A stretch of DNA of 64,000 bases from Candidatus Avoscillospira avicola (GTDB taxonomy: Bacteria; Bacillota; Clostridia; Oscillospirales; Oscillospiraceae), in the NCBI GenBank assembly GCA_018712245.1, contig DVHE01000056.1:16980-80979 (forward strand), written 5' to 3'. Under the pieces are notes generated by a model, which did not search any database, was not told the origin of the DNA, and saw only the letters and a program-made list of their open reading frames with translations. Every line of letters starts with the position of its first letter. The stretch's first letter is position 1. Below are positions 7,611-40,766 of this stretch, piece by piece. Made by a program: the position numbers and the translations under genes.

Positions 7611-7649
7611 GATGAAACAGGAACGGCAAAACCGAAGGCATGCCGTTCC
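7611..7649 (-). terminator. probable terminator of the dlt-like operon
   Basis: 9-bp stem GGAACGGCA (7620..7628) / TGCCGTTCC (7641..7649). On the minus strand it is followed by UGUUUCAU. Lies 38 nt after the DUF2284 stop. Confidence 0.45.
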
Positions 7650-7686
7650 TGCAAAAAACAATTTTCTTTCTTATGCTACCCTGCTA

Positions 7687-8250
7687 TTACGCGTGCGGCT
7701 CTTTTGCGTCGTTCCAGTCAAAGAGATACATGCCAAAGAAGTTCACAATGCCAGGGCCGCTGTCGTACTCCATGCCACAGTCCTCCGCCAGCTTTTCCAC
7801 ATACACGCAGTACGCCGACATACAGGAAAACTGCTTGTCCGGGAAGCGGCAGGGCTCCCCTGCCGTGATGGCGCATGGGTTACAGAGATTGCAGCCGCTG
7901 GCGCCCACCATGATGCCATGGCTGACCTCCGAAAGCTGGTCGATGAGGCGGCGCACCATGCGGTTGTGCTGCCCCTTGGACGTCTTCAGCGCCGCGCTGT
8001 CCATGGCATCGTCCATTTGCCACATGGTTTGCAGCAGCAGGGCGTAGCGGTGCGACTTGGCCTTTTGCTCCATGTCCGCGGGACTGCCGCAGTCCGGCGG
8101 GCAGGAATAGTTGGCACCGTATTTGCCGCAGGTGTTGTCCTCGCAGCAGATTCGAAAGCCCGGCACGAAGGGAATGTCCTTTGTCTCCACCACGGCGGCG
8201 TTGGCAAAGCCCTGCTCCAGGGCCAGAGAGACCAGTTCCTCACAGTTCAT
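7687..8250 (-). CDS. DUF2284-like Cys-rich predicted metal-binding protein
   Basis: MNCEELVSLALEQGFANAAVV...CCEDNTCGKYGANYSCPPDC...GCNLCNPC. The ATG at 8250 overlaps the stop of the upstream small ORF (ATGAACTGTGA). The ORF track extends to 8265. Confidence 0.65.
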   Translation of the reverse strand: MNCEELVSLALEQGFANAAVVETKDIPFVPGFRICCEDNTCGKYGANYSCPPDCGSPADMEQKAKSHRYALLLQTMWQMDDAMDSAALKTSKGQHNRMVRRLIDQLSEVSHGIMVGASGCNLCNPCAITAGEPCRFPDKQFSCMSAYCVYVEKLAEDCGMEYDSGPGIVNFFGMYLFDWNDAKEPHA

Positions 8251-8380
8251 AGATGAATTCCCCATTCCCGGTGAAATAGATGCAAACCAGCAGCAGCATC
8301 ACGGCGTAGATCAGCCAGGTGATTGCCCGGCCTCCCCGCGTTTTGGGGAGCGATTGCAGTTTTTTCAAGAGAGAAGCCAC
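8240..8380 (-). CDS. DltX-like 46-aa membrane peptide (MASLLKKLQSLPKTRGGRAITWLIYAVMLLLVCIYFTGNGEFIYEL)
   Basis: Own translation. GTG at 8378..8380 lies 10 nt after GGAGG (complement of 8391..8395); alternative TTG start at 8366..8368 overlaps the upstream stop. Basic N-terminus, one TM helix, C-terminal G-rich linker plus FIYEL. Stop at 8240..8242. Confidence 0.6.
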   Translation of the reverse strand: MASLLKKLQSLPKTRGGRAITWLIYAVMLLLVCIYFTGNGEFIYEL

Positions 8381-9249
8381 GGGTCAATCGCCTCCGTAAA
8401 GCAGTATGCGCCATACTCATAGTTAAGATGGCCGATGTCGTAAAAGCAGGATGCGTCCAGGGCAGACTCCATGTCCAAAAACTCCACGCCTTTTTCCTCG
8501 CACAGCGCCTTGGCCTGGTCGTAGACGGCCCGGGTCTCAGTGGAAACCTCCAGCGTGGGGTTGAGCGGCATCCAAACGGCCCGCAGCCGAATGCCGTTTC
8601 GCTGGCAGTAGTCCGCCAATTTGGAGAGGGCCGAAAGATTCTCCTGGAAGTCCTCGATGGGAAGGTGGGAATAAGGAGACTTGGCCACCTTCTCCTCCAG
8701 GGCCTCCTGGGAAAGGGAGCCGGTGTAGTGGGATTTCTGCCGGTCGGCATAGAGGACGGCGGGCGCCTGCCGGGTCAAGAGGCTCTTGGCCCCCTCCTCC
8801 AGGAAGATGCGCAGCCGGTCTCGCTGGAAATAGCAGTACGGTTCATAGAAGGCCTTGTGCCAGGGATAGGTCGGGTTGGTTTCAAAATCGTCATAGAGCG
8901 TCAGGTCGGAAAGGCCCACCACCAGATCGCTTCCCACGGTGATGATGCCTTTGTCCACCATCTCCCATAGGTCCTCCACGACGCCGTAGTCCAGTCCGAG
9001 GTTTACATAACCGCTTTCGCTGACGTCCTCCCGATAGGCGGAGATCACGACGGAGTTGCCGAAAAAGACTTTGTCCCATACCTCCTCCGGGTGGTCGCGG
9101 CGCGTCAGCTCATAGTCATTGAGGACGAAGCGCCCACTCTGGATGAGATAGGGCTGGAACAGGGCGGCCACGACGGTGTCCAGCACGATGACGGCCACCA
9201 ACAGCAACAGCAGGAAGCTGTTTCGCTTGCAAAATTGGAGAAATTTCAT
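8365..9249 (-). CDS. membrane-anchored SGNH-like protein, DltD/AlgJ-type O-acyltransferase partner
   Basis: Starts MKFLQFCKRNSFLLLLLVAVIVL (N-terminal anchor; ATG 9247..9249 abuts the MBOAT stop). FFGNSVV is a candidate nucleophile block and FYDIGHLN is a DxxH block near the C-terminus. Confidence 0.65.
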   Translation of the reverse strand: MKFLQFCKRNSFLLLLLVAVIVLDTVVAALFQPYLIQSGRFVLNDYELTRRDHPEEVWDKVFFGNSVVISAYREDVSESGYVNLGLDYGVVEDLWEMVDKGIITVGSDLVVGLSDLTLYDDFETNPTYPWHKAFYEPYCYFQRDRLRIFLEEGAKSLLTRQAPAVLYADRQKSHYTGSLSQEALEEKVAKSPYSHLPIEDFQENLSALSKLADYCQRNGIRLRAVWMPLNPTLEVSTETRAVYDQAKALCEEKGVEFLDMESALDASCFYDIGHLNYEYGAYCFTEAIDPWLLS

Positions 9250-10412
9250 AGCCGGAAGAACCCCCTTATGGCCTGCAGCAGCTGGGAACCGCTCATGGTG
9301 AAGAACATGGCGTTGACGGCAAACAGGCCGAAGACCACCAGGCACCGGAAGACGTAGAGCGCCTTGGGCGTTCTGCGCTTATCCACCGTGGTGAGGCCGG
9401 TGAGATTCTCCAGAGCCAGGACGCCGCCCATATATAGGCCGGTGCAGAGGGCCGGAAGGCTGAACTCATGCCAAAGGCTCATCACCAGCATGGTGACGAG
9501 GCCGATCAACGCGGAAATCCACTTGTTGAGCCGCTTCCCGTTGACCACCACGAAGATATGCTCCCGGATGAAGTCGCTGAGGGTGACGTGCCATCTCCGC
9601 CAGAACTGGGTGAAGCTGGCGGCTTGCCACGGTTTTTTGAAGTTTTCCGGCACCGGGATGCCCATAAAGGTGCCAACGGCGATGGCAATATCGCTGTAGC
9701 CGGAGAGGTCCACATACAAAATGAGGTAGCTCAGCACGGCCAGGGCGCCGCTGACATAGAAGTGGGACGACATTTGCAGCACCCGGTTGAGCGCCTTGAG
9801 CAAAAACGCCGCCACCACCAGCTTTTTGAAAAGGCCCAGGATCAGCCGCTTGACCGAGGCCTCCGCCGTGGAAGCCGTCAGGATCTTGGGGGCCTGATAC
9901 GCCTTGAGGAAGTCCCGGTAGCGGAAGATGGGGCCCGCTGTCAGCACCGGGAAAAAGAGCAGATAGTTGGCATAGGCGAGAAGCGGGATTCTTTCCCCGG
10001 TGTAGTAGACATAAAATACCGCGTCCACCGCCTTGAGCATATTGTAGGCAAAGCCCACCAAGACGATCCACTGGGGCAGCGCCGGGAAAAAGGCCGCGCT
10101 GCGGGTGTAAAAGAGCGGGGCCACGTCCAGCAGACAGAACAGTACGAAACAGAATTTCCGGCCCCGCCGGATTTTCCCGATGCTCCAGGCCAGCAGGTAG
10201 CTGACCAGGGTATAGGCCGCGTAAAAGGCCAGGAGCTTCCAGTCCACGTAGAGCAGAAGCCCCAGGTCCAGCACCAGCAGCCACGGTGTCAGCGCCTTGC
10301 CGGGCCGGAAGCGGGCCAGCAAGGCGCTGGCCGCTGCAAATAGAACAGCCGCTGCCAACATCAATAGCAGGGTGTCTACCTTGAGATACCACATACGAAA
10401 TAATTCTCCCAT
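9246..10412 (-). CDS. MBOAT-family membrane O-acyltransferase (DltB/AlgI type)
   Basis: 388 aa and polytopic. FTQFWRRWHVTLSDFIREHIF and the downstream conserved His in MSLWHEFS are the MBOAT signature. The start may be the Met at 10394. Confidence 0.85.
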   Translation of the reverse strand: MGELFRMWYLKVDTLLLMLAAAVLFAAASALLARFRPGKALTPWLLVLDLGLLLYVDWKLLAFYAAYTLVSYLLAWSIGKIRRGRKFCFVLFCLLDVAPLFYTRSAAFFPALPQWIVLVGFAYNMLKAVDAVFYVYYTGERIPLLAYANYLLFFPVLTAGPIFRYRDFLKAYQAPKILTASTAEASVKRLILGLFKKLVVAAFLLKALNRVLQMSSHFYVSGALAVLSYLILYVDLSGYSDIAIAVGTFMGIPVPENFKKPWQAASFTQFWRRWHVTLSDFIREHIFVVVNGKRLNKWISALIGLVTMLVMSLWHEFSLPALCTGLYMGGVLALENLTGLTTVDKRRTPKALYVFRCLVVFGLFAVNAMFFTMSGSQLLQAIRGFFRL

Positions 10413-10433
10413 CGCCCCCAGGGGGCGCTTTGA

Positions 10434-10685
10434 TTAGCCCTTCAGTTTCCGCTCCACCACTTCCGCGATCTCGTTGACGGTGTTCATGGGATAGAGCGTG
10501 ATATCCTTCTGGGTGATCTGGATGTGGAAGGTCTCCTCCAGGAAGAGGACGATCTCCGTGGCGCCCAGCGAGTCCACAAAGCCGTAGTCAAAGAGATGGA
10601 CGTCGTCGCCGAAATCGGGGTCGTCGGCCTCAATCTGAAAATGCTCCAGAATATAGCTGCGCAGCGTGTCTTTTACATTGTCCAT
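10434..10685 (-). CDS. DltC-like aminoacyl/acyl carrier protein
   Basis: 83 aa and acidic. Phosphopantetheine-attachment motif GFVDSLGATEIV. Confidence 0.85.
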   Translation of the reverse strand: MDNVKDTLRSYILEHFQIEADDPDFGDDVHLFDYGFVDSLGATEIVLFLEETFHIQITQKDITLYPMNTVNEIAEVVERKLKG

Positions 10686-10694
10686 GGTGATACC

Positions 10695-11186
10695 TCATTT
10701 CTTATCATTGGATTGCAGCGTCTTGCTGCATATGGTGGCCACAGGCGTCATGCCATGGCCGGACCAGTAGGCCTGGGCTGCCGCATTTCCCGGGAGGATT
10801 TGCAGCTGCATGACGTTTATCCCGTTTTCCTGGAGCCAGGTTTCTGCAAAAGCCGTCAGTCGCCGGGCCAGGCCCTGGCGGCGGGCGGCGGGGGATACAT
10901 AGAGATCGTTGAGGAAGCCCACGCTGGCTGCGCCCTGGCAGAGATACTCCGGGCTCAGCCGCAGGATCGAGCAGAACACAAAGCCCAATAGCGTCCCGCC
11001 GGTGTCCTCCGCCACAGCGGTGAGGATCAACCGGGAGCGGATGCGCGTCTCCAGCACCCGGGGCAGGGCCTCGTCGTTGAGGTCATAGTTCATACCGCAG
11101 GTCAAAAGGCCCTGATGGTAGCTCCGATAGAGCGCCAGCAGCTGGGGAAGGTCCTCCTGCCGGGCCTCGCGAATGGTCAGTTCCAT
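10695..11186 (-). CDS. GNAT-family N-acetyltransferase embedded in the dlt-like operon
   Basis: 163 aa. LYVSPAARRQGLARRL is the acetyl-CoA binding motif. 9-nt gaps to both neighbours. Confidence 0.8.
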   Translation of the reverse strand: MELTIREARQEDLPQLLALYRSYHQGLLTCGMNYDLNDEALPRVLETRIRSRLILTAVAEDTGGTLLGFVFCSILRLSPEYLCQGAASVGFLNDLYVSPAARRQGLARRLTAFAETWLQENGINVMQLQILPGNAAAQAYWSGHGMTPVATICSKTLQSNDKK

Positions 11187-11195
11187 GAAACCACC

Positions 11196-12707
11196 TCAGA
11201 GCATGGCCTTGAGGGCGACGCGGTCGATCTTGCGGTTGGCGTTCAGCGGCAGGGCCTCCATGCAGACCAGCTTGCCGGGGAGCATATACTTGGGGATATA
11301 TTTCCCCAGCTCCACGTTGAGCCGCCGGAGCGTCAGCGCTTTGGACGTTTCGACATAGAGAACGATCCGCTCGTTCTCCGCGTCGAACACGGCACAGGCA
11401 TTGGCAATGCAGGGGACGCACCGGGCGGCGGTCTCAATGTCGCCCATTTCGATTCGGTTGCCGCGGAGTTTGATCTGGCTGTCCTTCCGGCCTACGTACT
11501 GGATGAGGCCGTCGGCCTCGCGGTAGGCAAGGTCGCCGGTGCGGTACATGGGCTCCGGGAAGGCGCGGTTGAGGGGATTTGTGACAAAGTGGCGTGCTGT
11601 CTCCCCGGGATTGTTCCAGTAGCCCAGGGCCAGCTGGCTGCCCACCACGCAAAGCTCGCCGGTCTCCCCTGCCGCGGCCTCAGTGTCGTCGTCCCGGAGG
11701 ATCAGCACCCGCATATTGGGCCGGGCATAGCCGATGGGCAGCGGGTCGGAGTCAGAAAATTCCCGGTCCACGTTGTAGATCGTGCAGTCCACGGTGATCT
11801 CCGTGGGGCCGTAGAGGTTGGAGTAGAGGCAGTTCGGCAGCGCTTTGCGCCAGATGTTCAGCTGCTTGTTGGGCATGACCTCTCCGGCGAAGACCACGGT
11901 CTGGAGGTCCGGCAGCGCCACGGTATCCAGCGCGCCGGAGTTGGCCACGCTGCACATGACGGTGGGCACCCAGAAGACGCAGCTGACCCGCTTTTCCGCC
12001 ACGTACTCCATCAGCTTCACCGGGTACATAAAGAGGATTTCCGGGATGATTAGCACCTTGGCCCCGGTGAGGACCGCGGCGTAGAGGTCAAAGACCGAGT
12101 TGTCAAAGTGGAAGCCCGACTGGAGACCGATGATCGTGTCCTTTGTAATGCCGTAGCTCTCGGCGATGAAGGCGGCATAGTCCAACACGCCCCGGTGGGG
12201 AATCACCACGCCCTTGGGTGTACCGGTGGAGCCGGAAGTGTACATAATATAGGCTGGGTCTGTATCCACGGTGGCGTCCACCGTGCGATAAAGAGCCTCT
12301 TCGTCTTCGTGACCGGCAGTCAAGGTGACATAATCCAGAAGCAGAGATTCCGGCAGGTCCAGGCTCTGGAGCTTGCCTCTCCCCTCTTCATTGGTGATGA
12401 TGCAGCTGGGCCGGAGGTTCTGGAGGGTCTTTTCGGTCCGGTTGGCCGGGGCGGTATAGTCCAGCGGTGCGTAGGGCGCGCCGCAGTAGAGGGCGGCGTA
12501 AAAGCTGACGACGCAGCCGCAGCTCTTGGGCAGGTAAACGGCCACAGGGCCGCCCTTTTTGACGCCGTGGGCCAGCAGCGCCGTAGCGGCAATGCGGGCC
12601 GCAGTGCGCAAGGCCTTATAGGTCATTTCACCGTCGCTGTCCTCCAGGGCGACGGCCTGGGGCAGCTGAGCGGCGGTGCGCTCCAGCAGGCAGACAATGG
12701 AGTTCAT
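11196..12707 (-). CDS. stand-alone amino-acid adenylation enzyme, DltA-type (paralog 1)
   Basis: 503 aa. Core motifs YIMYTSGSTGTPKGV, FHFDNSVFD, NLYGPTE, GELCVVGSQLALGYW, YRTGDLA, GRKDSQIKLRGNRIEMGDIE, NRKIDR. No C or T domain. Confidence 0.9.
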   Translation of the reverse strand: MNSIVCLLERTAAQLPQAVALEDSDGEMTYKALRTAARIAATALLAHGVKKGGPVAVYLPKSCGCVVSFYAALYCGAPYAPLDYTAPANRTEKTLQNLRPSCIITNEEGRGKLQSLDLPESLLLDYVTLTAGHEDEEALYRTVDATVDTDPAYIMYTSGSTGTPKGVVIPHRGVLDYAAFIAESYGITKDTIIGLQSGFHFDNSVFDLYAAVLTGAKVLIIPEILFMYPVKLMEYVAEKRVSCVFWVPTVMCSVANSGALDTVALPDLQTVVFAGEVMPNKQLNIWRKALPNCLYSNLYGPTEITVDCTIYNVDREFSDSDPLPIGYARPNMRVLILRDDDTEAAAGETGELCVVGSQLALGYWNNPGETARHFVTNPLNRAFPEPMYRTGDLAYREADGLIQYVGRKDSQIKLRGNRIEMGDIETAARCVPCIANACAVFDAENERIVLYVETSKALTLRRLNVELGKYIPKYMLPGKLVCMEALPLNANRKIDRVALKAML

Positions 12708-12915
12708 GGTGGGTCTCCTTTCAAATGACGATCCGGGTTGTCAATGGCTCCCCTGTGTAAGGGGAGCTGGCTCTCGAAGCGAGACTGAGGGGTTGTCCAC
12801 GCCCGACGAACAACTGCTGACAAGTGTCGGGAAAGCGAGCAGCCATTGCCGCTTCTGATCCCCTCCGGCACGGCGAAGCCGTGCCACCTCCCCTTGGAGA
12901 CCAAGGGGAGGCTAA
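12708..12915 (-). repeat. hairpin-rich GC-rich spacer between the two ligase genes (REP/MITE-like element candidate)
   Basis: Perfect stems: 11 bp (12887..12911, loop AGA), 8 bp (12867..12885, loop GAA), 7 bp (12747..12767). No U-tract after any of them. It is the only large gap in the operon. Confidence 0.5.
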
Positions 12916-14430
12916 TCAAGTCTCAAGGCTTTTGCGGAGCGTCACCCGGTCGATCTTGTCATTGGCGGTGTGGGGGAGCTTCTCCATAGGCACCAGCTTG
13001 GCTGGGAGCATATACTGCGGGATATACCGCTTCAGCTCCAGGTTGAACTTCCGCAGCGGAAGCGTCCCCTGGGTCTCCACAAAGAGGACGATCTGCTCAT
13101 GCTCGGCGTCGAAGATGGCGGCGGCGTTTTCCACGCCCGCCACACACATGGCGGCGGTTTCGATCTCGCCCAGCTCAATGCGGTTGCCCTTGAGCTTGAT
13201 CTGGTTGTCCTTTCTGCCGCAGAATTGCAGCAATCCGTCCGCATCCCAATAGGCCAGATCGCCGGTGTGGTAGAGCCGCTCGGCGTAGTCCGGCGTCAGC
13301 GGATTTTGCGTGAAGGCCCGGGCGGTAATTTCCGGAGCGTTCCAATAGCCCAGCGCCACACCGCTGCCGATGACGCAGAGTTCTCCCTGCTCCCCCGGCG
13401 CGGCCTCCTTCCCGTCCTCGGTCAGCAGCACCACGCGCATATTTTCGCAGGCACGGCCAATGGGCAGAGGGTCGGCGTCGTCAAAGGCCCGGTCCACGAT
13501 ATAGTAGCAGCAGACGTCGGTAATTTCCGTGGGACCGTAGAGATTGGCGTAGGTGCAGTGGGGCAGCGCCTGGCGCCAGAGGTTCAGCTGCTTATTGGGC
13601 ATGACCTCGCCGCAGAAGGCGACGGTTCGGAGCTGGGGCAGCTCGATGCCCTCCAGGGCGCCGGAGTTGGCCACGTTGATCATCACTGTGGGCACCCAGA
13701 AAATGGAGGTGATCTCCTTTTCCCGCAGGAATTCGGGCAGCCGCAGCGGGAAGAGCATCAGGACATCCGGGATCAGCACCAGCTTGCCGCCGCAATGGAG
13801 ACTGCCGTAGATATCGAAAGTGGAGTTGTCGAAGTAGAAGGGCGCCTGGTTGGCCATGACGGTCGTTTCGTCAAAGCGGAAGGTCGTCACCACCCAGTCT
13901 GCGTAGTCAATAATCCCCCGGTGGGGAATGGTGACGCCCTTGGGCGTACCGGTGGAGCCGGAGGTGTACATAATATAGATGGGGTCGGAGTCCACCACCT
14001 GCGCCAGGGCGGAAGCCACGGCGGCTTCGTCCACCGGTGCGGCAGACAGCTCCTCAATCAGCGCTACCTGCGCGCCCAGGAGGTCGATGGCGGTGAGATT
14101 TTCCGCCAGCTCCCGGCTGGTGATGAGGACGCCGGGCGTCAGACTTTCGACGATTTTTTGAAGTCGCGTCATGGGAATGTGGGAATCCACCGGGGCATAG
14201 GGGCTGCCGGCGTACATGGCGCCCATGAACGCGCAGACCATCCCGGCGCTCTTGGGCAGATACACCACGACGGGACGCCGGGCGCTGCCCATCGCCAGCA
14301 GGCCGGAGCCAATGGCCAAGGCACGCTGCCGGTAGGCTTCATAAGTGAGGCTCTCCTGCTCATCCTCCAGGGCAACGCGGGCGCCGAAGCGTGCCGCGGC
14401 CTCGTCAAGCATACAAACTGCTGAATTCAT
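12916..14430 (-). CDS. stand-alone amino-acid adenylation enzyme, DltA-type (paralog 2)
   Basis: 504 aa. YIMYTSGSTGTPKGV, FYFDNSTFD, NLYGPTE, GELCVIGSGVALGYW, YHTGDLA, GRKDNQIKLKGNRIELGEIE, NDKIDR. Start overlaps the upstream stop (ATGA 14427..14430). Confidence 0.9.
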   Translation of the reverse strand: MNSAVCMLDEAAARFGARVALEDEQESLTYEAYRQRALAIGSGLLAMGSARRPVVVYLPKSAGMVCAFMGAMYAGSPYAPVDSHIPMTRLQKIVESLTPGVLITSRELAENLTAIDLLGAQVALIEELSAAPVDEAAVASALAQVVDSDPIYIMYTSGSTGTPKGVTIPHRGIIDYADWVVTTFRFDETTVMANQAPFYFDNSTFDIYGSLHCGGKLVLIPDVLMLFPLRLPEFLREKEITSIFWVPTVMINVANSGALEGIELPQLRTVAFCGEVMPNKQLNLWRQALPHCTYANLYGPTEITDVCCYYIVDRAFDDADPLPIGRACENMRVVLLTEDGKEAAPGEQGELCVIGSGVALGYWNAPEITARAFTQNPLTPDYAERLYHTGDLAYWDADGLLQFCGRKDNQIKLKGNRIELGEIETAAMCVAGVENAAAIFDAEHEQIVLFVETQGTLPLRKFNLELKRYIPQYMLPAKLVPMEKLPHTANDKIDRVTLRKSLET

Positions 14431-17408
14431 CCGTCTGTCTCCTTGCTGAAGCGAAGGGACAGGGTGTCCGCCTCGCCGTATTTGGTGAAAATGGTTTTGC
14501 CGTCCCGGGTCTCCACGTCCCAGCCGGCGCTGGCGGCGACGGCGTCTCCCTCCACTACTACTTGCAGCATTCCATCGGCCTCAAAGGCGATCTCTGCCCC
14601 GTTGGACAAAAGGGTGATGTCCGCCGGCAGATTGACCTGCGTCAGATGGGCTGTCTGGGAGGGCTCCCCTGCCGTTAAGGTGACGGGGCGGTTGAGAGAG
14701 ACGAAGAGGCTATTGCCCCGCTGATACCAGACGTCTGCGTCCACCGCAAAGGCCGCGGCGCTGTGGTCCTGGGAGAACTGAACCTCCACGCCCACAGAAG
14801 TATCGTCTTTGGCGGCAATGGTCAGCGCACCGTTCTGGGTTTTGGCGTCCACTGTCAGGGCCAGCGCTTCGGCGGAAGCTGCCATCAGCTGATCCTCCCG
14901 GACGAAATTATAACCGAATTTCCACTGGAAGTCCGAGACCTTTTGCAGGTAGTCCCGGGCGCCTAAGTCGCTCTCATAGACGAAGTCACAGTGGTAGTAG
15001 ATGCACACCGGCATTCTGTATTCGCCGGAGAGATCGGTCCAGGCGCTGTCCACATAGGGCAGGACGGAGTTATCCTGCACCAGCAGTGTCCCCTCCCCGT
15101 CCTTCTGGAGGAAGAACGGCAGGGCGATGACGTTTTCCGCCGCGTACTGCGGCGCTACGCCGGTATCGTAGGCCGGTGAGAAGCCGGAGTTCCAGAGGAG
15201 TCCGGCGGCGTATTCGCTGTCAAAGGTCTGGGTGTCGCCCAGGTTGCTGGAGTACCAGGTGTGGAGATTGGCGCCGATGCCCTCGGTGGGCAAGCCATAG
15301 GCCTCAAAGGCCTCCAGGTGGCGCTCCAGTTCATAAGCTTCGCGGGCTTCCGACGCACCGGCATTGGAGTAGTGGTGGATGCCCACATAGAGGTGATGCG
15401 CCTCGGCGAAGTCCACCTGGGCCTCCAGCGCCGCCCGCTCCGGGAAGTAGGGCGAATCGATGGGATAGGCCAGGCCGTACTCCAGGGAGCCGCAGACCAG
15501 GTCCAGCGCGCCGTCGCCGTCGAGATCGTAGAAGGCAGGCACGGCGTAGGTGCCGAATTTGGCCCGGTCATTGCCCTTGTAGTTTTGCTCGTCCAGGGTG
15601 ATATAGCCGTTGAAGGCAAAGCCGCCTTGACCGTCGTTCAGGAAAATGGCCAGATATCCCTCAAAGAGGCCCACCACCAGGTCCTGGTATCCGTCACCAT
15701 TCCAGTCCACCTGGCCGGGGGCAAGCCACTGGCCCAGTTCCGCATCGGCACAGAGCCGGGAGAGGCTGGACATCCGGCTGTGGTCAAAGGAGACGGTGCC
15801 GTCGATATTCTGGCCGTAGTACACCAGAAGGACGCCGCTGTCACTGCCCACGGCCAGGTCCACGGTGCCGTCGCCGTTGAAGTCCCCGACGCAGGGCAGG
15901 GACTGACCGGGCAGGTCTGTGGTAAACAGAAGCCCCTGGGGCGTGAAGTGGCCGTTGGGGTCTCCGGCAAACCAATAGATGCCGCCGTCACTGCTGCCGC
16001 TGAGGAGGTCCATGCGTCCATCTCCGTTTAGATCGACCAGCTGCGGCGCGGAGTAGCCCGCCACCTGGAGGGGATAACCGTCGGCATCGGTCAAAAGTGA
16101 AGGCTCGCGCACATGGAGTCGGTCCGAGTATTCCAGGATTTCATAGGCGTAGAAATAGCCGTCCTCGCTGCCGGAGACCAGCATCTCCTTCCCCTGAATG
16201 GCACCGAAGGCCGGATAAGCCCGGTAGTCATACTCCGGATACTCCCGGAAGTAACTGCCTGCGTCCTCGATGGAGTTGATTTGCAGCCACTGGTCGTTGC
16301 AGGCGATGTGGGTGCCCGAGGAGTAGGCGCTCTCTTCCCAGTCCATGGCAAAGTCCATGCCGTCATCGCTCTGGTTTAAGAGATACGTGACGGTCTCGGT
16401 GCGGAGGAACCACCAATAGCTGCTGCGGATCAGCGTATAGGAGGGAATCTGGTGGTATTCCTCGCAGAGATCGTAAAAGAGCTTCATGGAGTTGTGGGCG
16501 ATGCCGGTCATCTCTTCATAGTGAAGCTCCCAGCTCATGGAGGGACTGCCGTTGTAGCCATAGACCCGGTTCAGGGCGTATCCAAACTGCTTTTTGGCAG
16601 CCAACGTGGCCACACCACTGTAAAAGAGCTGGTTGCAGCTGGTGGTGGTGGCGGAAAATGCAGTTTCCTCCCCGGTGCGGCGGGTCATGGAGAAGTTGCC
16701 CAGGGAATAGACGTTGGGCAGCAGCGGGTTGGTCAGCAGTACGGCGCCTTCGCCATAGGCCCGGTAGGTGTAGAGTGCCAGCTCTCCCCACATGGCCAGC
16801 GGCTCCGCCGCATCCGGGACGAAACCATAGCCGTAATCCTGCTGGGAGAGGACGTCATAGTCATAGAAATCCGGGTAGAGGCCGGAGAAGTCCTCCACCA
16901 AGGTTTGCAGCGGCTGGAGGTCTTCCTCCACCGTCGGGAAGGTCAGCTCCACCGGACAGCCGGTGAGGGGCACGACCTCCCGAATCCCCAGATAGTCTGC
17001 GGAAAAGAGCGGCGCGAAGGCATTGTCCAACAGCACATAGCCGCCCGCCTCCGTATAGGCGATCAGTAACGCCTCATAGGCGGCGATGTTGGGAGAATTG
17101 GCCAGCGCCGCGGCGGGGATTACCAGGTCGTACTGGGAGAGATCCGAGACCTCCTCCAGGTTAACCAGCTCTGTGGTGAGGCCCAACAGCGTGGACTGCT
17201 CCAAAAGCTCTGCCACGTCCTGCGGCGCGGCCATGTCACAAGTGCTGTCATAAGCCACGGCGACCTGGAGCGCATAGGTGAGGCCGTCCGGCAGCGGGTC
17301 TGCCGCATGGGGCGTCTGCGCCGCTTCCTGGGGCTGGCTGCATCCACTGAAAGCCAGGCATAGAATTAAGAAAAGCGCCGCGAGCCGGCGCAGTGTGTGT
17401 TGCTTCAA
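14427..17408 (-). CDS. large lipoprotein with a central FG-GAP/VCBS-type repeat block
   Basis: Likely TTG start at 17406..17408, 8 nt after GGAGGA, giving MKQHTLRRLAALFLILCLAFSGC (lipobox). Four DxNGDGxxDL-type repeats (DLNGDGRMDL, DFNGDGTVDL, DWNGDGYQDL, DLDGDGALDL) at about 15476..16181. Confidence 0.8.
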   Translation of the reverse strand: MKQHTLRRLAALFLILCLAFSGCSQPQEAAQTPHAADPLPDGLTYALQVAVAYDSTCDMAAPQDVAELLEQSTLLGLTTELVNLEEVSDLSQYDLVIPAAALANSPNIAAYEALLIAYTEAGGYVLLDNAFAPLFSADYLGIREVVPLTGCPVELTFPTVEEDLQPLQTLVEDFSGLYPDFYDYDVLSQQDYGYGFVPDAAEPLAMWGELALYTYRAYGEGAVLLTNPLLPNVYSLGNFSMTRRTGEETAFSATTTSCNQLFYSGVATLAAKKQFGYALNRVYGYNGSPSMSWELHYEEMTGIAHNSMKLFYDLCEEYHQIPSYTLIRSSYWWFLRTETVTYLLNQSDDGMDFAMDWEESAYSSGTHIACNDQWLQINSIEDAGSYFREYPEYDYRAYPAFGAIQGKEMLVSGSEDGYFYAYEILEYSDRLHVREPSLLTDADGYPLQVAGYSAPQLVDLNGDGRMDLLSGSSDGGIYWFAGDPNGHFTPQGLLFTTDLPGQSLPCVGDFNGDGTVDLAVGSDSGVLLVYYGQNIDGTVSFDHSRMSSLSRLCADAELGQWLAPGQVDWNGDGYQDLVVGLFEGYLAIFLNDGQGGFAFNGYITLDEQNYKGNDRAKFGTYAVPAFYDLDGDGALDLVCGSLEYGLAYPIDSPYFPERAALEAQVDFAEAHHLYVGIHHYSNAGASEAREAYELERHLEAFEAYGLPTEGIGANLHTWYSSNLGDTQTFDSEYAAGLLWNSGFSPAYDTGVAPQYAAENVIALPFFLQKDGEGTLLVQDNSVLPYVDSAWTDLSGEYRMPVCIYYHCDFVYESDLGARDYLQKVSDFQWKFGYNFVREDQLMAASAEALALTVDAKTQNGALTIAAKDDTSVGVEVQFSQDHSAAAFAVDADVWYQRGNSLFVSLNRPVTLTAGEPSQTAHLTQVNLPADITLLSNGAEIAFEADGMLQVVVEGDAVAASAGWDVETRDGKTIFTKYGEADTLSLRFSKETDG

Positions 17409-17488
17409 GGGTGATTCCTCCAAAGATGCCGCTGCGATTAACTTCTGCCTCTCGGAAAAACGCAGCAGCGCACTGCCTAAACATGAAA

Positions 17489-17517
17489 ATTATAGCAGTA
17501 TTCCCGGCTGTTTGCAA
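17489..17517 (-). promoter_or_regulatory. near-consensus sigma-A promoter of the dlt-like operon
   Basis: Minus strand: TTGCAA (17512..17517), 17-nt spacer, TATAAT (17489..17494). Predicts a 5' UTR of about 75 nt. Confidence 0.55.
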
Positions 17518-17571: not shown

Positions 17572-17621
17572 TAAAAAATGCCCGGAAAGACGCCCGGAAA
17601 GCCAGAGGGCCTTCCGGGCGT
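17572..17621 (-). terminator. probable terminator after the YitT-family gene
   Basis: 10-bp stem ACGCCCGGAA (17590..17599) / TTCCGGGCGT (17612..17621). A U-run (complement of AAAAAA 17573..17578) lies about 10 nt further on. Confidence 0.45.
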
Positions 17622-17649: not shown

Positions 17650-18561
17650 TCAGTCGTTGGGCTTTCGGTAAAATCTGCCGGAGATTTGGTTGGTCTTCAG
17701 CACGTTGACAAAGGCATGGGGGTCGATTTCCCGGACAGCGCGGGTCACTTGCTTGACCTGATTGCTGTCGATGACGGAATAGATCAGTTCTTTTGGTTCC
17801 CCATTGTAAAGCCCTGTCCCATGGAAGAGCGTGGCGCTATGGTGTGTGGTGTCTTTGATATGGAGATAGATCTGCTCGGCACTGTTGGAGATGATGAACA
17901 GAGTAGTCTGCTTGAACCGAGGGTCCAGCAGATGCACCACCTGGGTGGAGGCAAACTGGAAAATGATCGAGTAGAGCGCCTTGTCCCAGCCGAAGAGGAT
18001 GCCAGCCACCACCAGCATGATACAGTTGCCGGCGAAGATGTAATTCCATGCGTCCAGGCCCAAGCGTTCGCTGATGGCCGCTGCGATAAAGTCGGTGCCG
18101 CCGCTGGTGGCGCGGCCCATCAGGCACAGGCTGATGGCCAGGCCCTGAATCATTCCGCCGAAAATGCACACCAGCAGCACGTCGTCAGTCAGAGGCATGG
18201 CCGGAATCAAGTCAGTGAGGATACTGGTCAGGGCGATCATCAGACAGGAGTAGGTGGTGAACCATTTGCCGATCAATCGAAAGCTGATGATTGCAGGGAT
18301 GGCGTTTAACAGCAGATTGATGGGCGTGAACGGCAGGGAGATGCCCGCAAATTGTTCGGCACTGCGCTGAATCAAAAGTGTCAGTCCGTTGAAGCCGCCG
18401 GGGAACAGACCACCGGCATTGACGAAGCTCTTGATATTGACGGACATGATGACGGAGGCCAGGACGATCAGGGAGAGTCTTGCGATGGGTCCACGCTGGA
18501 ACTGCTGCCAGGTACGCCCAATCCGGGCGGAGAGCTGGGAATGGGGACGCTGCTCCTTCAT
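17650..18561 (-). CDS. YitT-family membrane protein (DUF2179 C-terminal domain)
   Basis: Starts MKEQRPHSQL (ATG 18559..18561). Polytopic N-terminal part plus a soluble C-terminus (TLFIISNSAEQIYLHIKD...HAFVNVLKT) typical of YitT proteins. Confidence 0.8.
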   Translation of the reverse strand: MKEQRPHSQLSARIGRTWQQFQRGPIARLSLIVLASVIMSVNIKSFVNAGGLFPGGFNGLTLLIQRSAEQFAGISLPFTPINLLLNAIPAIISFRLIGKWFTTYSCLMIALTSILTDLIPAMPLTDDVLLVCIFGGMIQGLAISLCLMGRATSGGTDFIAAAISERLGLDAWNYIFAGNCIMLVVAGILFGWDKALYSIIFQFASTQVVHLLDPRFKQTTLFIISNSAEQIYLHIKDTTHHSATLFHGTGLYNGEPKELIYSVIDSNQVKQVTRAVREIDPHAFVNVLKTNQISGRFYRKPND

Positions 18562-18626
18562 GGGAAATCCTCCTTTGTTCAGAAACGACTGAGCTTGCCG
18601 GGCGGCGTGAGGTGCCGCCCACATCG

Positions 18627-19205
18627 TTAATGCGCCTGGGTAGGAGAAGCCGTATCGGGCCCATAGGGAAGCCCCCGGAGAACCACCTGCCGGATGAAGC
18701 GGAAGGTTTCCTTCTCGCCTTGGTCCCGCAGCATGGTGAGCAAAAAGCTGAGCTTTGCCCTGGTTTCTGGGTGCATCAGTCCGGTGTCTCTGGATTGCTC
18801 CAGATACTCCAGCGCGGAACCGTCGTGGTAGTCCTTCCCTTTGTAGACTTTGCAGGCGGCGATCCGGTCCATCACCATTTCCACCAGGTACTGCGTGGGC
18901 ATGGGGACCGGGCCGTAAGTCTTGGTGCCGGGGAGAATGTCGGTCCAATATTCAAAATGGTGTTTATTTCGACCCTTGTGGTGCATCCACGCCAGGGAAT
19001 AGCCCATCGCTTCCCGCTCGGCGGTGTTGGGGCTTCTGGTTCCCTGGTAGTAGCGTATCCCGGCGCGGAACTCCGTCCAACTGTACTTGGAGAGGTCGTG
19101 GGCCAGTCCCCGCCGGTAAAGCCCCACCTGAAAACAGTGTTTCATCACCAGATGGCGGTGCTTTGTGATGGTTTTAAAATGCTGCCAGCCTTTGGACAAG
19201 GCCAT
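18627..19205 (-). CDS. conserved hypothetical protein (resembles the DUF5662 family from memory)
   Basis: 192-aa His-rich ORF (HRHLVMKHCF, HDLSKY, WMHHKGRNKHHFEYW) in consistent coding context. Family name not verifiable here. Confidence 0.55.
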   Translation of the reverse strand: MALSKGWQHFKTITKHRHLVMKHCFQVGLYRRGLAHDLSKYSWTEFRAGIRYYQGTRSPNTAEREAMGYSLAWMHHKGRNKHHFEYWTDILPGTKTYGPVPMPTQYLVEMVMDRIAACKVYKGKDYHDGSALEYLEQSRDTGLMHPETRAKLSFLLTMLRDQGEKETFRFIRQVVLRGLPYGPDTASPTQAH

Positions 19206-33384: not shown

Positions 33385-33632
33385 AAAAAAGCCCTCTGTC
33401 TGACGACAGAGGGCGAAAACTCGCGGTACCACCTCAGGTTCGCCGCAGCCTCGCGGGTGCGGCCTCACGGAGTCGGAGACTCCCGGCTGTAACGGGCCAC
33501 CCGGCGCACCCTACTCTTCGTTCAGGCCGCTGCTCCAAGGCGTATTCGGGCAGGACGTCCGCCTCCTTGCACCAACCGGAGGCTCTCTTCAGGGCGCGAT
33601 CTGCCGTACTGTTCCTTTTCCTCGCATGTATC
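33385..33632 (-). promoter_or_regulatory. T-box riboswitch leader, tyrosine specifier (UAC)
   Basis: Minus strand shows AGAGAG (complement of 33581..33590), distal GGUUGGUGCAAGG, and GAA-UAC-G specifier (codon at 33542..33544). T-box sequence GGUGGUACCGCG is at 33422..33433. Terminator stem 33391..33414 plus U6 (33385..33390). Confidence 0.85.
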
Positions 33633-40077: not shown

Positions 40078-40099
40078 AAATTGCCTCCAAAGAAAAATA

Positions 40100-40730
40100 A
40101 TGGCAGCAAATCAGGTTAATCTTACGGCTTAGGTCGGGTAGGATTTCCCCGGCGGCTGCTCCCCGTCGCCGTGGGAGCGGTTTCCCATGAAAGCCGCCGT
40201 CTTTCCGTTGCCGAGAAAGCAACCCGATTGCCACTGAGTCCGTACTGCAATCCCTGATTTGCTCTGTTAAGACAGCCTAGGTGATTTCCACAACAGCGTC
40301 CATCGACTCTTATCCTCTTTTGCAAGCAGGCTTTCGAGAGGCAATATCGCGCCTCGCCCCTGGCCTGGGGTCTGCGCGCCTGACACCTCTGTCCCGATCT
40401 GCTCACGCAAGGCAGGCTACGCTGTACACAGCGCTCCGGAAAGCCGTTGCACCGCGATACAGGTTCTCATCCTGCCTCGTACAGAGGTCGCTTTGACCGC
40501 TTGGGAGTACGCCTCTGCACAACAGCAGGTCTCCACAGCGGCAGGGTCGGGGTCTCCATGCCATTGGAGGCCGCCCTTCCGCCGCAGGCGTAATTGTTAC
40601 GCCTTCCTTCAGCACCCACCCCAAACTGGGCGTAAGAAGCAGGCACCAAAGGTTTCACAGTTATGCCCTTTAAAGGATTTTTAGGCCCTTCCTGGGAGCC
40701 GGGGATACTGACTAGGATACTGCGCCATTA
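40100..40730 (-). ncRNA. ole: OLE (ornate, large, extremophilic) RNA candidate; ends approximate
   Basis: About 630 nt with no credible ORF in an otherwise coding-dense region. Has its own promoter. Many local stems (e.g. 40587..40603, 40420..40433). Synteny with oapA-dxs-tlyA-nadK-argR-recN matches the published OLE locus. Not confirmed by a covariance model. Confidence 0.65.
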
Positions 40731-40737
40731 TTTTGTT

Positions 40738-40766
40738 AGTATAGCACATTATTCATGGATATACAA
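40738..40766 (-). promoter_or_regulatory. putative promoter of the OLE-oapA unit
   Basis: Minus strand: TTGTAT (40761..40766), 17 nt, TATACT (40738..40743), inside an AT-rich patch. Confidence 0.5.

What the first reader, a model, noticed from the sequence alone, without database searches (positions are those of the whole stretch)
7687..17517. Nine-gene dlt-like operon with non-canonical content: two ligases, one carrier, GNAT, MBOAT, DltD-like, hidden DltX-like, DUF2284, FG-GAP lipoprotein
Seen: one near-consensus promoter (TTGCAA-17-TATAAT, 17489..17517) is followed by nine same-strand genes. Gaps are 0-21 nt, or the stop and start codons overlap (ATGA at 14427..14430; 8365..8380; ATGAACTGTGA at 8240..8250). 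The only larger gap is a 208-bp hairpin-rich spacer. Gene order is FG-GAP lipoprotein, adenylation enzyme 2, spacer, adenylation enzyme 1, GNAT, 83-aa carrier (DSLG), MBOAT, anchored SGNH/DltD-like protein, 46-aa DltX-like peptide, Cys-rich DUF2284 protein. Established: DltA, DltC, DltB, DltD and DltX together D-alanylate teichoic acids, normally encoded as dltXABCD. Inference: every Dlt function is present, but the order (A-A-GNAT-C-B-D-X), the duplicated ligase and three extra genes do not fit the canonical operon. This looks like a related but distinct envelope-polymer aminoacylation machine, possibly adding two different amino acids or an N-acetylated one. I know of no characterised system with this layout.
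Basis: partly seen in the sequence, partly recalled or inferred. Interest (0 to 1): 0.85.

Follow-up and report, generated by a model that had tools for sequence, protein, structure and literature searches.

The report
Dlt-like amino-acid relay, non-canonical
A gut Clostridia bacterium carries a self-contained gene module built like the Dlt system that puts D-alanine on teichoic acids. Its parts are different, it has extra amino-acid-activating enzymes, and it has a large dedicated lipoprotein, so it probably adds something other than D-alanine to an unknown cell-surface target.

Summary
The nine same-strand genes, their overlaps, the promoter and the 208-nt spacer are all present as described.

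Profile and structure searches confirm these parts:
- two stand-alone adenylation enzymes
- a GNAT acetyltransferase
- a carrier protein with a DSLG serine
- a DltB-like MBOAT
- a membrane-anchored SGNH-fold protein with an invariant Ser/Asp/His triad
- a 46-aa microprotein ending in the DltX-type tyrosine motif

None reaches the curated DltA, DltB, DltC, DltD or DltX thresholds. Both ligase specificity codes share only 3 of 10 positions with Bacillus subtilis DltA.

Relatives were found in 111 species-representative genomes, mostly Oscillospiraceae and other Clostridia. In the 80 loci retrieved, ligase(s), carrier, MBOAT and SGNH travel together through unrelated genomic contexts. The microprotein and the roughly 1000-aa FG-GAP lipoprotein accompany them in most loci. 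One copy lies on a mobilisable element.

The second ligase and the GNAT are optional accessories. DUF2284 follows the module only in three close relatives (L007, L087, window) and is a passenger.

My reading is a distinct Dlt-type transmembrane aminoacyl relay. The amino acid(s) and the acceptor are unknown. I found no published description. I class it as a new variant of a known kind.

The parts
17489..17517 (-). Sigma-70-type promoter, TTGCAA-17-TGcTATAAT
   Evidence: 10 of 12 matches, with TG extension; sequence. It lies between the upstream gene's terminator-like hairpin (17598..17581) and the first gene.
14427..17408 (-). Lipoprotein of about 993 aa. It has a signal peptide and lipobox (LAFSGC), an N-terminal alpha/beta domain, an FG-GAP beta-propeller (about residues 400-650), a further alpha/beta domain and a C-terminal beta-sandwich. 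It is specific to this system. The ORF as listed begins at TTG 17423.
   Evidence: Pfam FG-GAP_3 at 77 bits and FG-GAP at 49 bits. Full-length homologues at 44-98% identity. Cys28 of the lipobox is nearly invariant, as are many His, Glu and Asp residues. AF2 model with pLDDT 90.7. Best PDB fold match is PelA 9cgy at E 6.7e-7; the rest are beta-propellers. No sequence-level match outside the propeller.
12916..14430 (-). Core stand-alone adenylation enzyme ('A2', 504 aa), specificity code DNFFACLDVK
   Evidence: AMP-binding at 244 bits. TIGR01733 at 350 bits, above the 317 cutoff; DltA equivalog at 309 bits, below the 560 cutoff. The DNFF.CLDVK-type code belongs to the first ligase in most loci; a few carry other codes (DVMYAALDVK, EMLFMSIFIK). 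30% identity to B. subtilis DltA.
12708..12915 (-). Hairpin-rich intergenic spacer, specific to this lineage
   Evidence: MFE -96.2 kcal/mol, z -4.46. No Rfam match even at E<=1. No other copy in the window or loci. Absent in L087, where the two ligase genes abut. Different sequence in L007.
11196..12707 (-). Accessory adenylation enzyme ('A1', 503 aa), specificity code DNFFVALVDK
   Evidence: AMP-binding at 237 bits. TIGR01733 at 350 bits; DltA equivalog at 276 bits, below the 560 cutoff. 54% identical to A2. Its code is conserved in orthologues, but the gene is absent from many loci.
10695..11186 (-). Cytoplasmic GNAT N-acetyltransferase (163 aa), an accessory
   Evidence: Acetyltransf_1 at 51 bits. 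Weak resemblance to amine-acetylating GNATs such as AAC(6') and polyamine acetyltransferase. Present in 11 of 37 evaluable loci, either after the ligase(s) or between carrier and MBOAT.
10434..10685 (-). 83-aa carrier protein with the phosphopantetheine-site serine in DSLG
   Evidence: PP-binding at 35.4 bits, above the 20.8 cutoff. DltC models at 32.5 and 26 bits, below cutoffs of 68 and 52. Present in every locus that reaches it.
9246..10412 (-). DltB-like MBOAT (388 aa) with no C-terminal tyrosine motif of its own
   Evidence: MBOAT at 90.5 bits. TIGR04091 dltB at 152 bits, below the 375 cutoff. The only solved sequence relatives are DltB 6bug and 8jem at E 9e-23; FWRRWH and LWHE align with DltB's FWNRWH and FWHG. 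The C-terminus is ...AIRGFFRL.
8365..9249 (-). SGNH-fold acyltransferase candidate (294 aa) anchored by an N-terminal membrane helix, in the DltD role
   Evidence: Invariant G64-N65-S66 and D271-x-x-H274 in 32 homologues. AF2 pLDDT 93.8, with a long N-terminal helix at residues 11-38. Foldseek hits to GDSL/SGNH enzymes at probability 1.0, including DltD 7dxm (rank 6) and PatB 7tlv. No Pfam or NCBIfam hit. Small family: 43 clusters at E<=1e-30 among 1.84 billion representatives. Distant relatives hit DUF1574 and, weakly, DltD. One relative is an MBOAT fusion.
8240..8380 (-). 46-aa membrane microprotein in the DltX role. It has a basic N-terminus, one predicted transmembrane helix, and a C-terminal ...FTGNGEFIYEL.
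   Evidence: An ORF ending G-x-G-x-F-I-Y-E-(A/G)-F follows the SGNH gene in 62 of 77 loci. The pattern occurs only 70 times in 2.5 million six-frame residues, essentially only at these sites. It matches the DltX FxYxxF acyl-shuttle motif (PMC12148441). Pfam DltX scores only 13.7 bits against a cutoff of 25.
7687..8250 (-). DUF2284 Cys-rich protein. It overlaps the microprotein gene, so it is probably co-transcribed and translationally coupled, but it is not part of the conserved module.
   Evidence: DUF2284 at 132.5 bits. An 11-nt overlap with the microprotein gene. Present only in L007 and L087 and in 0 of 37 evaluable loci.
7619..7650 (-). GC-rich hairpin after DUF2284 (AGGAACGGCA...TGCCGTTCCT), the likely end of the transcription unit
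   Evidence: Read from the sequence. The U-run is weak (GTTTC) and the terminator scan did not list it.

Best explanation
The locus encodes a self-contained transmembrane aminoacyl relay of the Dlt type. It is paralogous to the canonical dlt operon, not orthologous to it.

Inferred steps:
1. In the cytoplasm, the core ligase A2 adenylates an alpha-amino acid and loads it as a thioester on the phosphopantetheine arm of the 83-aa carrier protein. In this lineage the accessory ligase A1 does the same with a second amino acid.
2. The accessory GNAT probably acetylates an amino group of the loaded or free amino acid.
3. The DltB-like MBOAT passes the acyl group through the membrane onto the conserved tyrosine in the C-terminal F-I-Y-E tail of the 46-aa microprotein.
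4. The membrane-anchored SGNH protein takes the acyl group on Ser66 (triad Ser66/Asp271/His274) and transfers it to an extracytoplasmic acceptor.
5. The roughly 990-aa lipoprotein has a beta-propeller and PelA-like domains. It is a dedicated outside partner that probably binds or pre-processes the acceptor, most likely a wall or surface glycopolymer.

DUF2284 is a lineage-specific passenger.

Shown here: the gene content, the catalytic motifs, the folds, the co-conservation and the non-equivalence to Dlt proteins. Inferred only: every chemical step, the identity of the amino acid(s), and the acceptor.
For: - Domain assignments are.
- The MBOAT's only solved sequence relatives are DltB, and both His motifs align.
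- A microprotein with a G-x-F-I-Y-E-x-F tail follows the SGNH gene in 62 of 77 loci. This matches the FxYxxF acyl-shuttle motif shown to carry D-Ala on DltX and acetyl on PatA (PMC12148441).
- An MBOAT-SGNH fusion protein exists in the family.
- The module is conserved in at least 111 species-level genomes, of which 80 loci were retrieved. It keeps tight gene order in unrelated flanks. No other co-conserved gene family was found within 10 kb either side.
- FG-GAP is present in 29 of the 32 microprotein-containing evaluable loci and in 0 of the 5 loci without the microprotein.
- The parts are not Dlt equivalogs. Scores against cutoffs: DltA 309 and 276 against 560; DltB 152 against 375; DltC 32.5 against 68; no DltD hit.
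- The ligase codes DNFFACLDVK and DNFFVALVDK compare with DltA DLMTMCTVAK at 3 of 10 positions each. Each code is conserved among orthologues down to about 53-58% identity.
- The lipoprotein's best structural match is the exopolysaccharide-modifying enzyme PelA.
Against: - No biochemical data exist.
- The SGNH and microprotein genes match no curated DltD or DltX model.
- In the window the tail is FIYEL, one residue shorter than the FxYxxF consensus.
- The PelA match is partial (TM 0.24-0.29 over 346 columns), and I could not locate which domain aligns or show deacetylase catalytic motifs.
- Specificity codes cannot be read into a substrate. A2 keeps the Cys that DltA uses to select D-Ala, so D-Ala is not excluded for A2.
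- I could not test whether the same genomes also carry a canonical dlt operon.
- A sub-variant lacks both the microprotein and the lipoprotein, so these two may not be mechanistically obligatory.
Confidence: 0.72

Rival explanations
1. This is simply the organism's ordinary, sequence-divergent dlt operon. It D-alanylates lipoteichoic or wall teichoic acid, one ligase is a redundant duplicate, and the other genes are neighbours.
For: All five Dlt roles are represented. Among full-length subfamily and equivalog NCBIfam models, DltA models score highest for both ligases. DltB is the only solved relative of the MBOAT. A2 retains Cys at code position 301, as DltA does. In one clade an LtaS-like sulfatase-domain protein follows the module.
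Against: All scores fall far below the equivalog cutoffs. The ligases are no closer to DltA (27-30% identity) than to GrsA (28-29%). The codes share 3 of 10 positions with DltA. Two to three ligases with different, conserved codes argue against redundancy. The FG-GAP lipoprotein is tightly co-conserved, and canonical dlt has no counterpart to it. The SGNH protein is about 100 aa shorter than DltD and does not hit PF04914.
Confidence: 0.13
2. The relay works as proposed, but the acceptor is not a glycopolymer. It could be a membrane lipid or glycolipid, as in aminoacyl-lipid formation, or a protein, possibly the FG-GAP lipoprotein itself.
For: No glycosyltransferase or polymer-synthesis gene is co-conserved with the module. 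The carrier's best NCBIfam match is an ornithine-lipid ACP, at 46 bits and sub-threshold. The lipoprotein is the only conserved extracytoplasmic partner.
Against: All characterised bacterial MBOAT-SGNH pairs acylate polymers (PMC12148441). The lipoprotein's best fold match is a polysaccharide-modifying enzyme. It has many invariant His, Glu and Asp residues, which is typical of an enzyme rather than a passive substrate.
Confidence: 0.12
3. It is a small NRPS-like pathway that makes a secreted or membrane-bound small molecule, such as an N-acetyl amino acid derivative. The MBOAT and SGNH proteins would act as tailoring or export enzymes.
For: Stand-alone adenylation enzymes, a carrier protein and a GNAT are common in natural-product clusters. 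The highest PDB score for A2 is to an NRPS, linear gramicidin synthase.
Against: There is no condensation, thioesterase or reductase domain. The membrane-anchored SGNH protein and the tyrosine-tailed microprotein next to a DltB-like MBOAT are the specific signature of the envelope acyl relay.
Confidence: 0.03

Closest known systems
Dlt pathway (DltX-DltA-DltB-DltC-DltD), D-alanylation of teichoic acids in Bacillota
   Same: It has the same five roles and probably the same chemistry: an adenylating ligase, a small Ppant carrier protein, an MBOAT of DltB size (388 aa) without its own tyrosine tail, a separate single-pass microprotein ending in an F-x-Y motif, and an N-terminally anchored SGNH protein. 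DltB is the only solved sequence relative of the MBOAT.
   Different: - No component reaches the Dlt equivalog or Pfam thresholds.
- There are one to three ligases, whose codes are unlike DltA's.
- An optional GNAT is present.
- An additional co-conserved lipoprotein of about 1000 aa with FG-GAP and PelA-like domains is present.
- The SGNH protein belongs to a different, small family.
- The gene order differs, with the microprotein last rather than first.
PatA/PatB, AlgI/AlgJ/AlgX and related MBOAT-SGNH O-acetylation systems
   Same: These also pair an MBOAT with an SGNH protein and use a tyrosine hexapeptide acyl shuttle (PMC12148441).
   Different: Those systems use acetyl-CoA. They have no ligase or carrier protein, and the tyrosine motif is fused to the MBOAT on two extra helices. 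Here the donor is a carrier-protein thioester and the motif is on a separate microprotein. That paper states these two features are otherwise found only in Dlt.
AlmEFG of Vibrio cholerae (glycine addition to lipid A)
   Same: A DltA-like ligase and a DltC-like carrier activate an amino acid other than D-Ala for envelope modification. This comparison rests on my own knowledge and was not tested here.
   Different: The Alm transferase is a cytoplasmic-face lipid A acyltransferase, not an MBOAT-SGNH-microprotein relay. Alm has no lipoprotein partner.
PelA (Pel exopolysaccharide de-N-acetylase/hydrolase)
   Same: It is the best structural match to the FG-GAP lipoprotein (9cgy, E 6.7e-7). PelA also combines a mixed alpha/beta domain, a (beta/alpha) barrel esterase-type domain and a beta-rich domain (PMC12022489).
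   Different: There is no detectable sequence similarity. A beta-propeller is inserted here. The PelA catalytic motifs (H-x-D-x-D, H-x3-H) were not identified. Membership is not claimed.

Membership tests
Canonical Dlt system | DltA: D-alanine--carrier protein ligase (TIGR01734 equivalog) | tested here: not met
   309.5 bits (A2) and 276.4 bits (A1) against a cutoff of 559.85. 30% and 27% identity to B. subtilis DltA.
Canonical Dlt system | D-Ala-type substrate pocket (10-residue specificity code like DltA's DLMTMCTVAK) | tested here: not met
   A2 is DNFFACLDVK and A1 is DNFFVALVDK, each 3 of 10 identical to DltA. A2 keeps Cys301. Reference sequences were verified against 3e7w and 1amu. Actual substrate preference cannot be tested with these tools.
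Canonical Dlt system | DltB (TIGR04091 equivalog) | tested here: not met
   152.2 bits against a cutoff of 375. However, DltB is the only PDB relative and both catalytic His motifs are conserved.
Canonical Dlt system | DltC (NF003464 / TIGR01688) | tested here: not met
   32.5 and 26.1 bits against cutoffs of 68 and 52.35.
Canonical Dlt system | DltD (Pfam PF04914) | tested here: not met
   No Pfam or NCBIfam hit. No PDB sequence-profile hit to DltD. There is only a fold-level match to 7dxm at E 2e-4 among many SGNH enzymes.
Canonical Dlt system | DltX (Pfam PF12459) with a C-terminal FxYxxF | tested here: inconclusive
   Pfam DltX scores 13.7 bits against a cutoff of 25. The family consensus tail FIYE[AG]F fits FxYxxF. 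The window copy ends FIYEL.
Bacterial MBOAT-SGNH acyl relay (general class) | MBOAT with conserved catalytic His | tested here: met
   PF03062 at 90.5 bits, above the cutoff of 27. The His motifs align with DltB.
Bacterial MBOAT-SGNH acyl relay (general class) | Extracytoplasmic SGNH-fold partner with a Ser/Asp/His triad | tested here: met
   Invariant GNS and DxxH. Model pLDDT 93.8 with an N-terminal anchor helix. SGNH fold matches at probability 1.0.
Bacterial MBOAT-SGNH acyl relay (general class) | Conserved tyrosine-containing C-terminal shuttle motif | tested here: met
   An invariant Tyr in G-x-F-[IL]-Y-E is found in 62 of 77 loci. Acylation of that Tyr cannot be tested here.
Amino-acid adenylation domain (TIGR01733) | Score above the curated cutoff, with Asp235 and Lys517 present | tested here: met
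   350.1 and 350.3 bits against a cutoff of 317.4. The codes start with D and end with K.
PelA / CE4-like polysaccharide deacetylase (for the lipoprotein) | (beta/alpha)7 barrel with the metal-binding Asp/His/His and catalytic Asp/His motifs | tested here: inconclusive
   The top Foldseek hit is 9cgy at E 6.7e-7, but the aligned region is not reported. No sequence-profile hit. Invariant His, Glu and Asp residues exist, but they were not mapped to the motifs.
   DUF2284 appears only in L007 and L087. GNAT is in 11 of 37 evaluable loci and a second ligase in about half.

The most novel reading that the evidence does not exclude
This would be the founding example of a second family of carrier-protein- and microprotein-dependent MBOAT-SGNH relays. 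It would decorate a surface glycopolymer of gut Oscillospiraceae with amino acids other than D-alanine. Swappable accessory genes (extra ligases with different specificity, a GNAT) would diversify the decoration. A dedicated PelA-like propeller lipoprotein would prepare or hold the acceptor. The whole cassette would move horizontally.
Probability: 0.45. Interest if true: 0.78.

Novelty: new variant of a known kind. Interest (0 to 1): 0.66.

Why it matters
D-alanylation by Dlt is the textbook way Gram-positive bacteria tune surface charge, resistance to cationic peptides and host interaction. The recent mechanistic literature states that a carrier-protein donor and a DltX-like microprotein are unique to Dlt among MBOAT-SGNH pathways (PMC12148441).

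This module shows the same relay architecture re-used with different ligases and a new obligatory-looking partner. It occurs in abundant but poorly studied gut anaerobes. If the acyl group or acceptor differs, it would reveal a new class of envelope decoration. Such a decoration could affect interactions with phages, the immune system and antimicrobial peptides.

The module also gives a natural test of how general the tyrosine acyl-shuttle mechanism is. Cultured carriers exist for experiments: Agathobaculum desmolans ATCC 43058 and Vermiculatibacterium agrestimuris DSM 112226.

Tried and rejected
- **Riboswitch or T-box in the spacer.** There is no Rfam hit at gathering threshold or at E<=1. 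The spacer is absent or different in close relatives, so I read it as a lineage-specific hairpin-rich insertion.
- **Repeated element (REP/MITE) in the spacer.** No other copy is present in the window or the loci.
- **Sequence-level link of the SGNH protein to DltD in the PDB.** None was found.
- **Sequence-level identification of the non-propeller parts of the lipoprotein.** Pfam at E<=10 on the two halves, a PDB profile search with the full alignment, and a PDB profile search with a propeller-deleted alignment gave nothing significant.
- **DUF2284 as a system component.** Rejected on synteny.
- **A tyrosine tail or hidden microprotein in the microprotein-less sub-variant.** None was found within 10 kb either side.
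- **Extra genes in ligase-carrier gaps (L056) or upstream of L021 as substrate clues.** These were uninformative.
- **Any further co-conserved gene family around the module.** None was found.
- **Literature.** Five full-text searches found no description of this cluster. Schultz et al. 2023 (PMC10664464) is not held, and subscription journals are largely not covered.
- **A second copy of any component in the window.** None was found.
Full report
**1. What is in the sequence**

Nine ORFs lie head to tail on the minus strand between 17423 and 7687.

- FG-GAP/A2: ATGA overlap at 14427-14430.
- A2/A1: a 208-nt spacer at 12708-12915.
- A1/GNAT, GNAT/carrier and carrier/MBOAT: gaps of 9, 9 and 21 nt.
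- MBOAT/SGNH: ATGA overlap at 9246-9249.
- SGNH/microprotein: 16-nt overlap, with a GTG start at 8380.
- Microprotein/DUF2284: 11-nt overlap.

The promoter TTGCAA-17-TATAAT (17517..17489) carries a TG extension and scores 10 of 12. It lies directly after a terminator-like hairpin of the upstream YitT-family gene. A GC-rich hairpin at 7619-7650 follows DUF2284.

Two refinements:
- The lipoprotein most likely starts at TTG 17408, which has a GGAGGA 7 nt upstream. A 98%-identical homologue is 993 aa.
- The SGNH gene starts at ATG 9249.

**2. What the parts are**

- **Ligases.** Both have AMP-binding domains and exceed the amino-acid-adenylation model TIGR01733 (350 bits against a cutoff of 317). 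They reach only 309 and 276 bits on the DltA equivalog, whose cutoff is 560. They are 54% identical to each other. Their identity to B. subtilis DltA is 27-30%, no higher than to GrsA.
- **Carrier.** The 83-aa protein passes PP-binding but not the DltC models.
- **MBOAT.** It passes PF03062 and scores 152 bits on the DltB equivalog (cutoff 375). DltB is its only solved sequence relative, and both histidine motifs are conserved. It has no tyrosine tail of its own.
- **'DltD-like' ORF.** It hits no Pfam or NCBIfam model, and a profile of 32 homologues finds no DltD in the PDB by sequence. Those homologues do have invariant G-N-S66 and D271-x-x-H274. An AlphaFold model (pLDDT 93.8) has a long N-terminal anchor helix. 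It matches GDSL/SGNH enzymes at probability 1.0, with DltD 7dxm at rank 6 and PatB also listed.
- **SGNH family size.** The family is small: 43 clusters at E<=1e-30 among 1.84 billion representatives. Its distant relatives hit DUF1574 and, weakly, DltD. One member is fused to an MBOAT.
- **Microprotein.** The 46-aa ORF is real. An ORF ending G-x-G-x-F-I-Y-E-(A/G)-F follows the SGNH gene in 62 of 77 loci. That pattern occurs essentially nowhere else in 2.5 million six-frame residues. The tail fits the FxYxxF 'acyl shuttle' motif of DltX, whose tyrosine carries D-Ala from DltB to DltD (PMC12148441). The window copy and its nearest relative end FIYEL. Pfam DltX is sub-threshold at 13.7 bits against 25.

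**3. The lipoprotein**

The family is conserved full-length at 44-98% identity, with a near-invariant lipobox cysteine and many invariant His, Glu and Asp residues.

The model (pLDDT 90.7) shows five regions:
- an N-terminal alpha/beta domain
- a split alpha/beta domain
- an inserted FG-GAP propeller (about residues 400-650)
- a further alpha/beta region
- a C-terminal beta-sandwich

The best PDB fold match is PelA, the Pel exopolysaccharide de-N-acetylase/hydrolase (9cgy, E 6.7e-7). The other matches are generic propellers. PelA also combines a mixed alpha/beta domain, an esterase-type barrel and a beta-rich domain (PMC12022489).

I could not see which residues align. No sequence-level similarity outside the propeller was found. 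A polymer-modifying or polymer-binding role is therefore an inference of modest strength.

**4. Comparative genomics**

A scan of one genome per species found relatives of the SGNH protein in 111 species, and 80 loci were retrieved.
- Nearly all are Oscillospiraceae or other Clostridia from animal and human guts.
- The nearest is Candidatus Avoscillospira stercorigallinarum, at 82% identity.
- Cultured carriers include Agathobaculum desmolans ATCC 43058 and Vermiculatibacterium agrestimuris DSM 112226.
- One locus is assigned to a Gastranaerophilales MAG.

tblastn with the nine window proteins and counts on the 37 loci with enough flanking DNA show which genes travel together:
- Ligase(s), carrier, MBOAT and SGNH are always together.
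- The microprotein is in 32 of 37 loci.
- The lipoprotein is in 29 of those 32 and in none of the 5 loci without the microprotein. It lies upstream of the ligase or downstream of the microprotein.
- The GNAT is in 11 of 37 loci, at two alternative positions.
- There are one, two or three ligases.
- DUF2284 is in 0 of 37 loci.

DUF2284 follows the module only in the two closest relatives, L007 and L087, which share the window's wider synteny.

Flanking genes otherwise differ completely between lineages. In one lineage the module sits between a relaxase/MobC pair and a serine recombinase. Clustering of all ORFs within 10 kb either side found no further co-conserved family, apart from a DUF805-like gene in the microprotein-less sub-variant.

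The functional module is therefore lipoprotein, ligase(s), optional GNAT, carrier, MBOAT, SGNH and microprotein. It behaves as a mobile cassette.

**5. Substrate clues**

The specificity codes were extracted against GrsA numbering. The reference sequences were verified against 1amu and 3e7w.

| Enzyme | Code |
|---|---|
| GrsA | DAWTIAAICK |
| B. subtilis DltA | DLMTMCTVAK |
| A2 (window) | DNFFACLDVK |
| A1 (window) | DNFFVALVDK |

- The A2-type code belongs to the first ligase in most loci. The A1-type code is conserved in its orthologues.
- Other clades carry a third type (DNFFLAMDIK), a DVMYAALDVK type, and rarer ones.
- Asp235 and Lys517 indicate alpha-amino-acid substrates.
- Each code shares only 3 of 10 positions with DltA, although A2 keeps the Cys that enforces D-Ala selection in DltA.
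- Different conserved codes for co-resident ligases argue that they load different amino acids on the single carrier. The identities cannot be read from the codes.
- The GNAT is cytoplasmic and weakly resembles amine N-acetyltransferases. N-acetylation of the loaded amino acid is plausible but untested.

**6. The spacer**

The spacer folds unusually well (-96.2 kcal/mol, z -4.46). It matches no Rfam family and is unique in the window. It is missing in a 79%-identical relative where the ligase genes abut, and it differs in sequence in L007. It is a lineage-specific insertion. At most it modulates relative expression, and it is not part of the conserved system.

**7. Interpretation**

The best-supported reading is a Dlt-type relay:

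ligase(s) -> carrier thioester -> MBOAT -> microprotein tyrosine -> SGNH serine -> extracytoplasmic acceptor.

The lipoprotein acts as a system-specific outside partner. The architecture, motifs, folds and co-conservation are shown here. Every chemical step is inferred by analogy with Dlt and PatAB.

The main rival is a merely divergent dlt operon. Four observations weaken it: the sub-threshold scores, the unlike specificity codes, the multiple ligases and the conserved lipoprotein. It is not excluded, because substrate and acceptor are unknown and I could not check for a canonical dlt operon in the same genomes.

**8. Novelty**

Five full-text searches found no description of this cluster. 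A 2025 mechanistic paper states that other MBOAT-SGNH pathways lack both a carrier protein and a DltX-like microprotein. Coverage of subscription journals is limited.

I rate this a new variant of a known kind and of real interest to envelope biologists. The mechanism is probably familiar, while the chemistry and the target remain unknown.

Noticed in passing
window 40084-40744 (-): A full-length OLE (ornate large extremophilic) RNA: Rfam RF01071, 430.8 bits, E 4e-123.
   Followed up: no
window 33406-33631 (-): A T-box leader: RF00230, 110.6 bits against a gathering score of 93. The regulated gene was not examined.
   Followed up: no
L023, L029, L054, L063, L066, L068-L074 (around 10000-11500 in each): A sub-variant of the module has two ligases, carrier, MBOAT and SGNH followed by a DUF805-like membrane protein. 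It has no tyrosine-tailed microprotein, no FG-GAP lipoprotein within 10 kb either side, and no tyrosine tail on the MBOAT. How the acyl group would be shuttled there is unexplained.
   Followed up: partly
L004 924-13128 (and L005): The module, in its single-ligase plus GNAT form, lies between an HTH/MobC/relaxase set and a serine recombinase. This looks like a mobilisable element.
   Followed up: no
L061 3975-10953: A MAG assigned to Gastranaerophilales (non-photosynthetic Cyanobacteriota) carries the module. Its ligase code is EMLFMSIFIK, which lacks Asp235, so the substrate may not be an alpha-amino acid. This could be horizontal transfer or a binning error.
   Followed up: no
protein P0249 (717 aa): A natural fusion of an MBOAT (residues about 134-340) with this SGNH family (residues 418-708). 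It supports direct functional coupling of the two proteins.
   Followed up: partly
L001 11018-13510: In one clade an 830-aa protein starts 2 nt after the microprotein gene. It has several N-terminal hydrophobic, membrane-helix-like stretches (read from the translation, not formally predicted), a sulfatase (LtaS-like) domain and faint SLH hits. A two-component system follows. This may hint at the envelope target.
   Followed up: no
window 17462-17476 (-): A small GC hairpin followed by GTTTTTCC lies inside the roughly 70-nt 5' leader, between the promoter and the lipoprotein start. It is terminator-like by the scan and could be an attenuator or chance.
   Followed up: no
window 17650-18948 (-) compared with L087: The YitT/DUF2179 membrane-protein gene between DUF5662 and the module in the window is absent at the same place in the syntenic relative L087. 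This is a local insertion or deletion next to the module.
   Followed up: no
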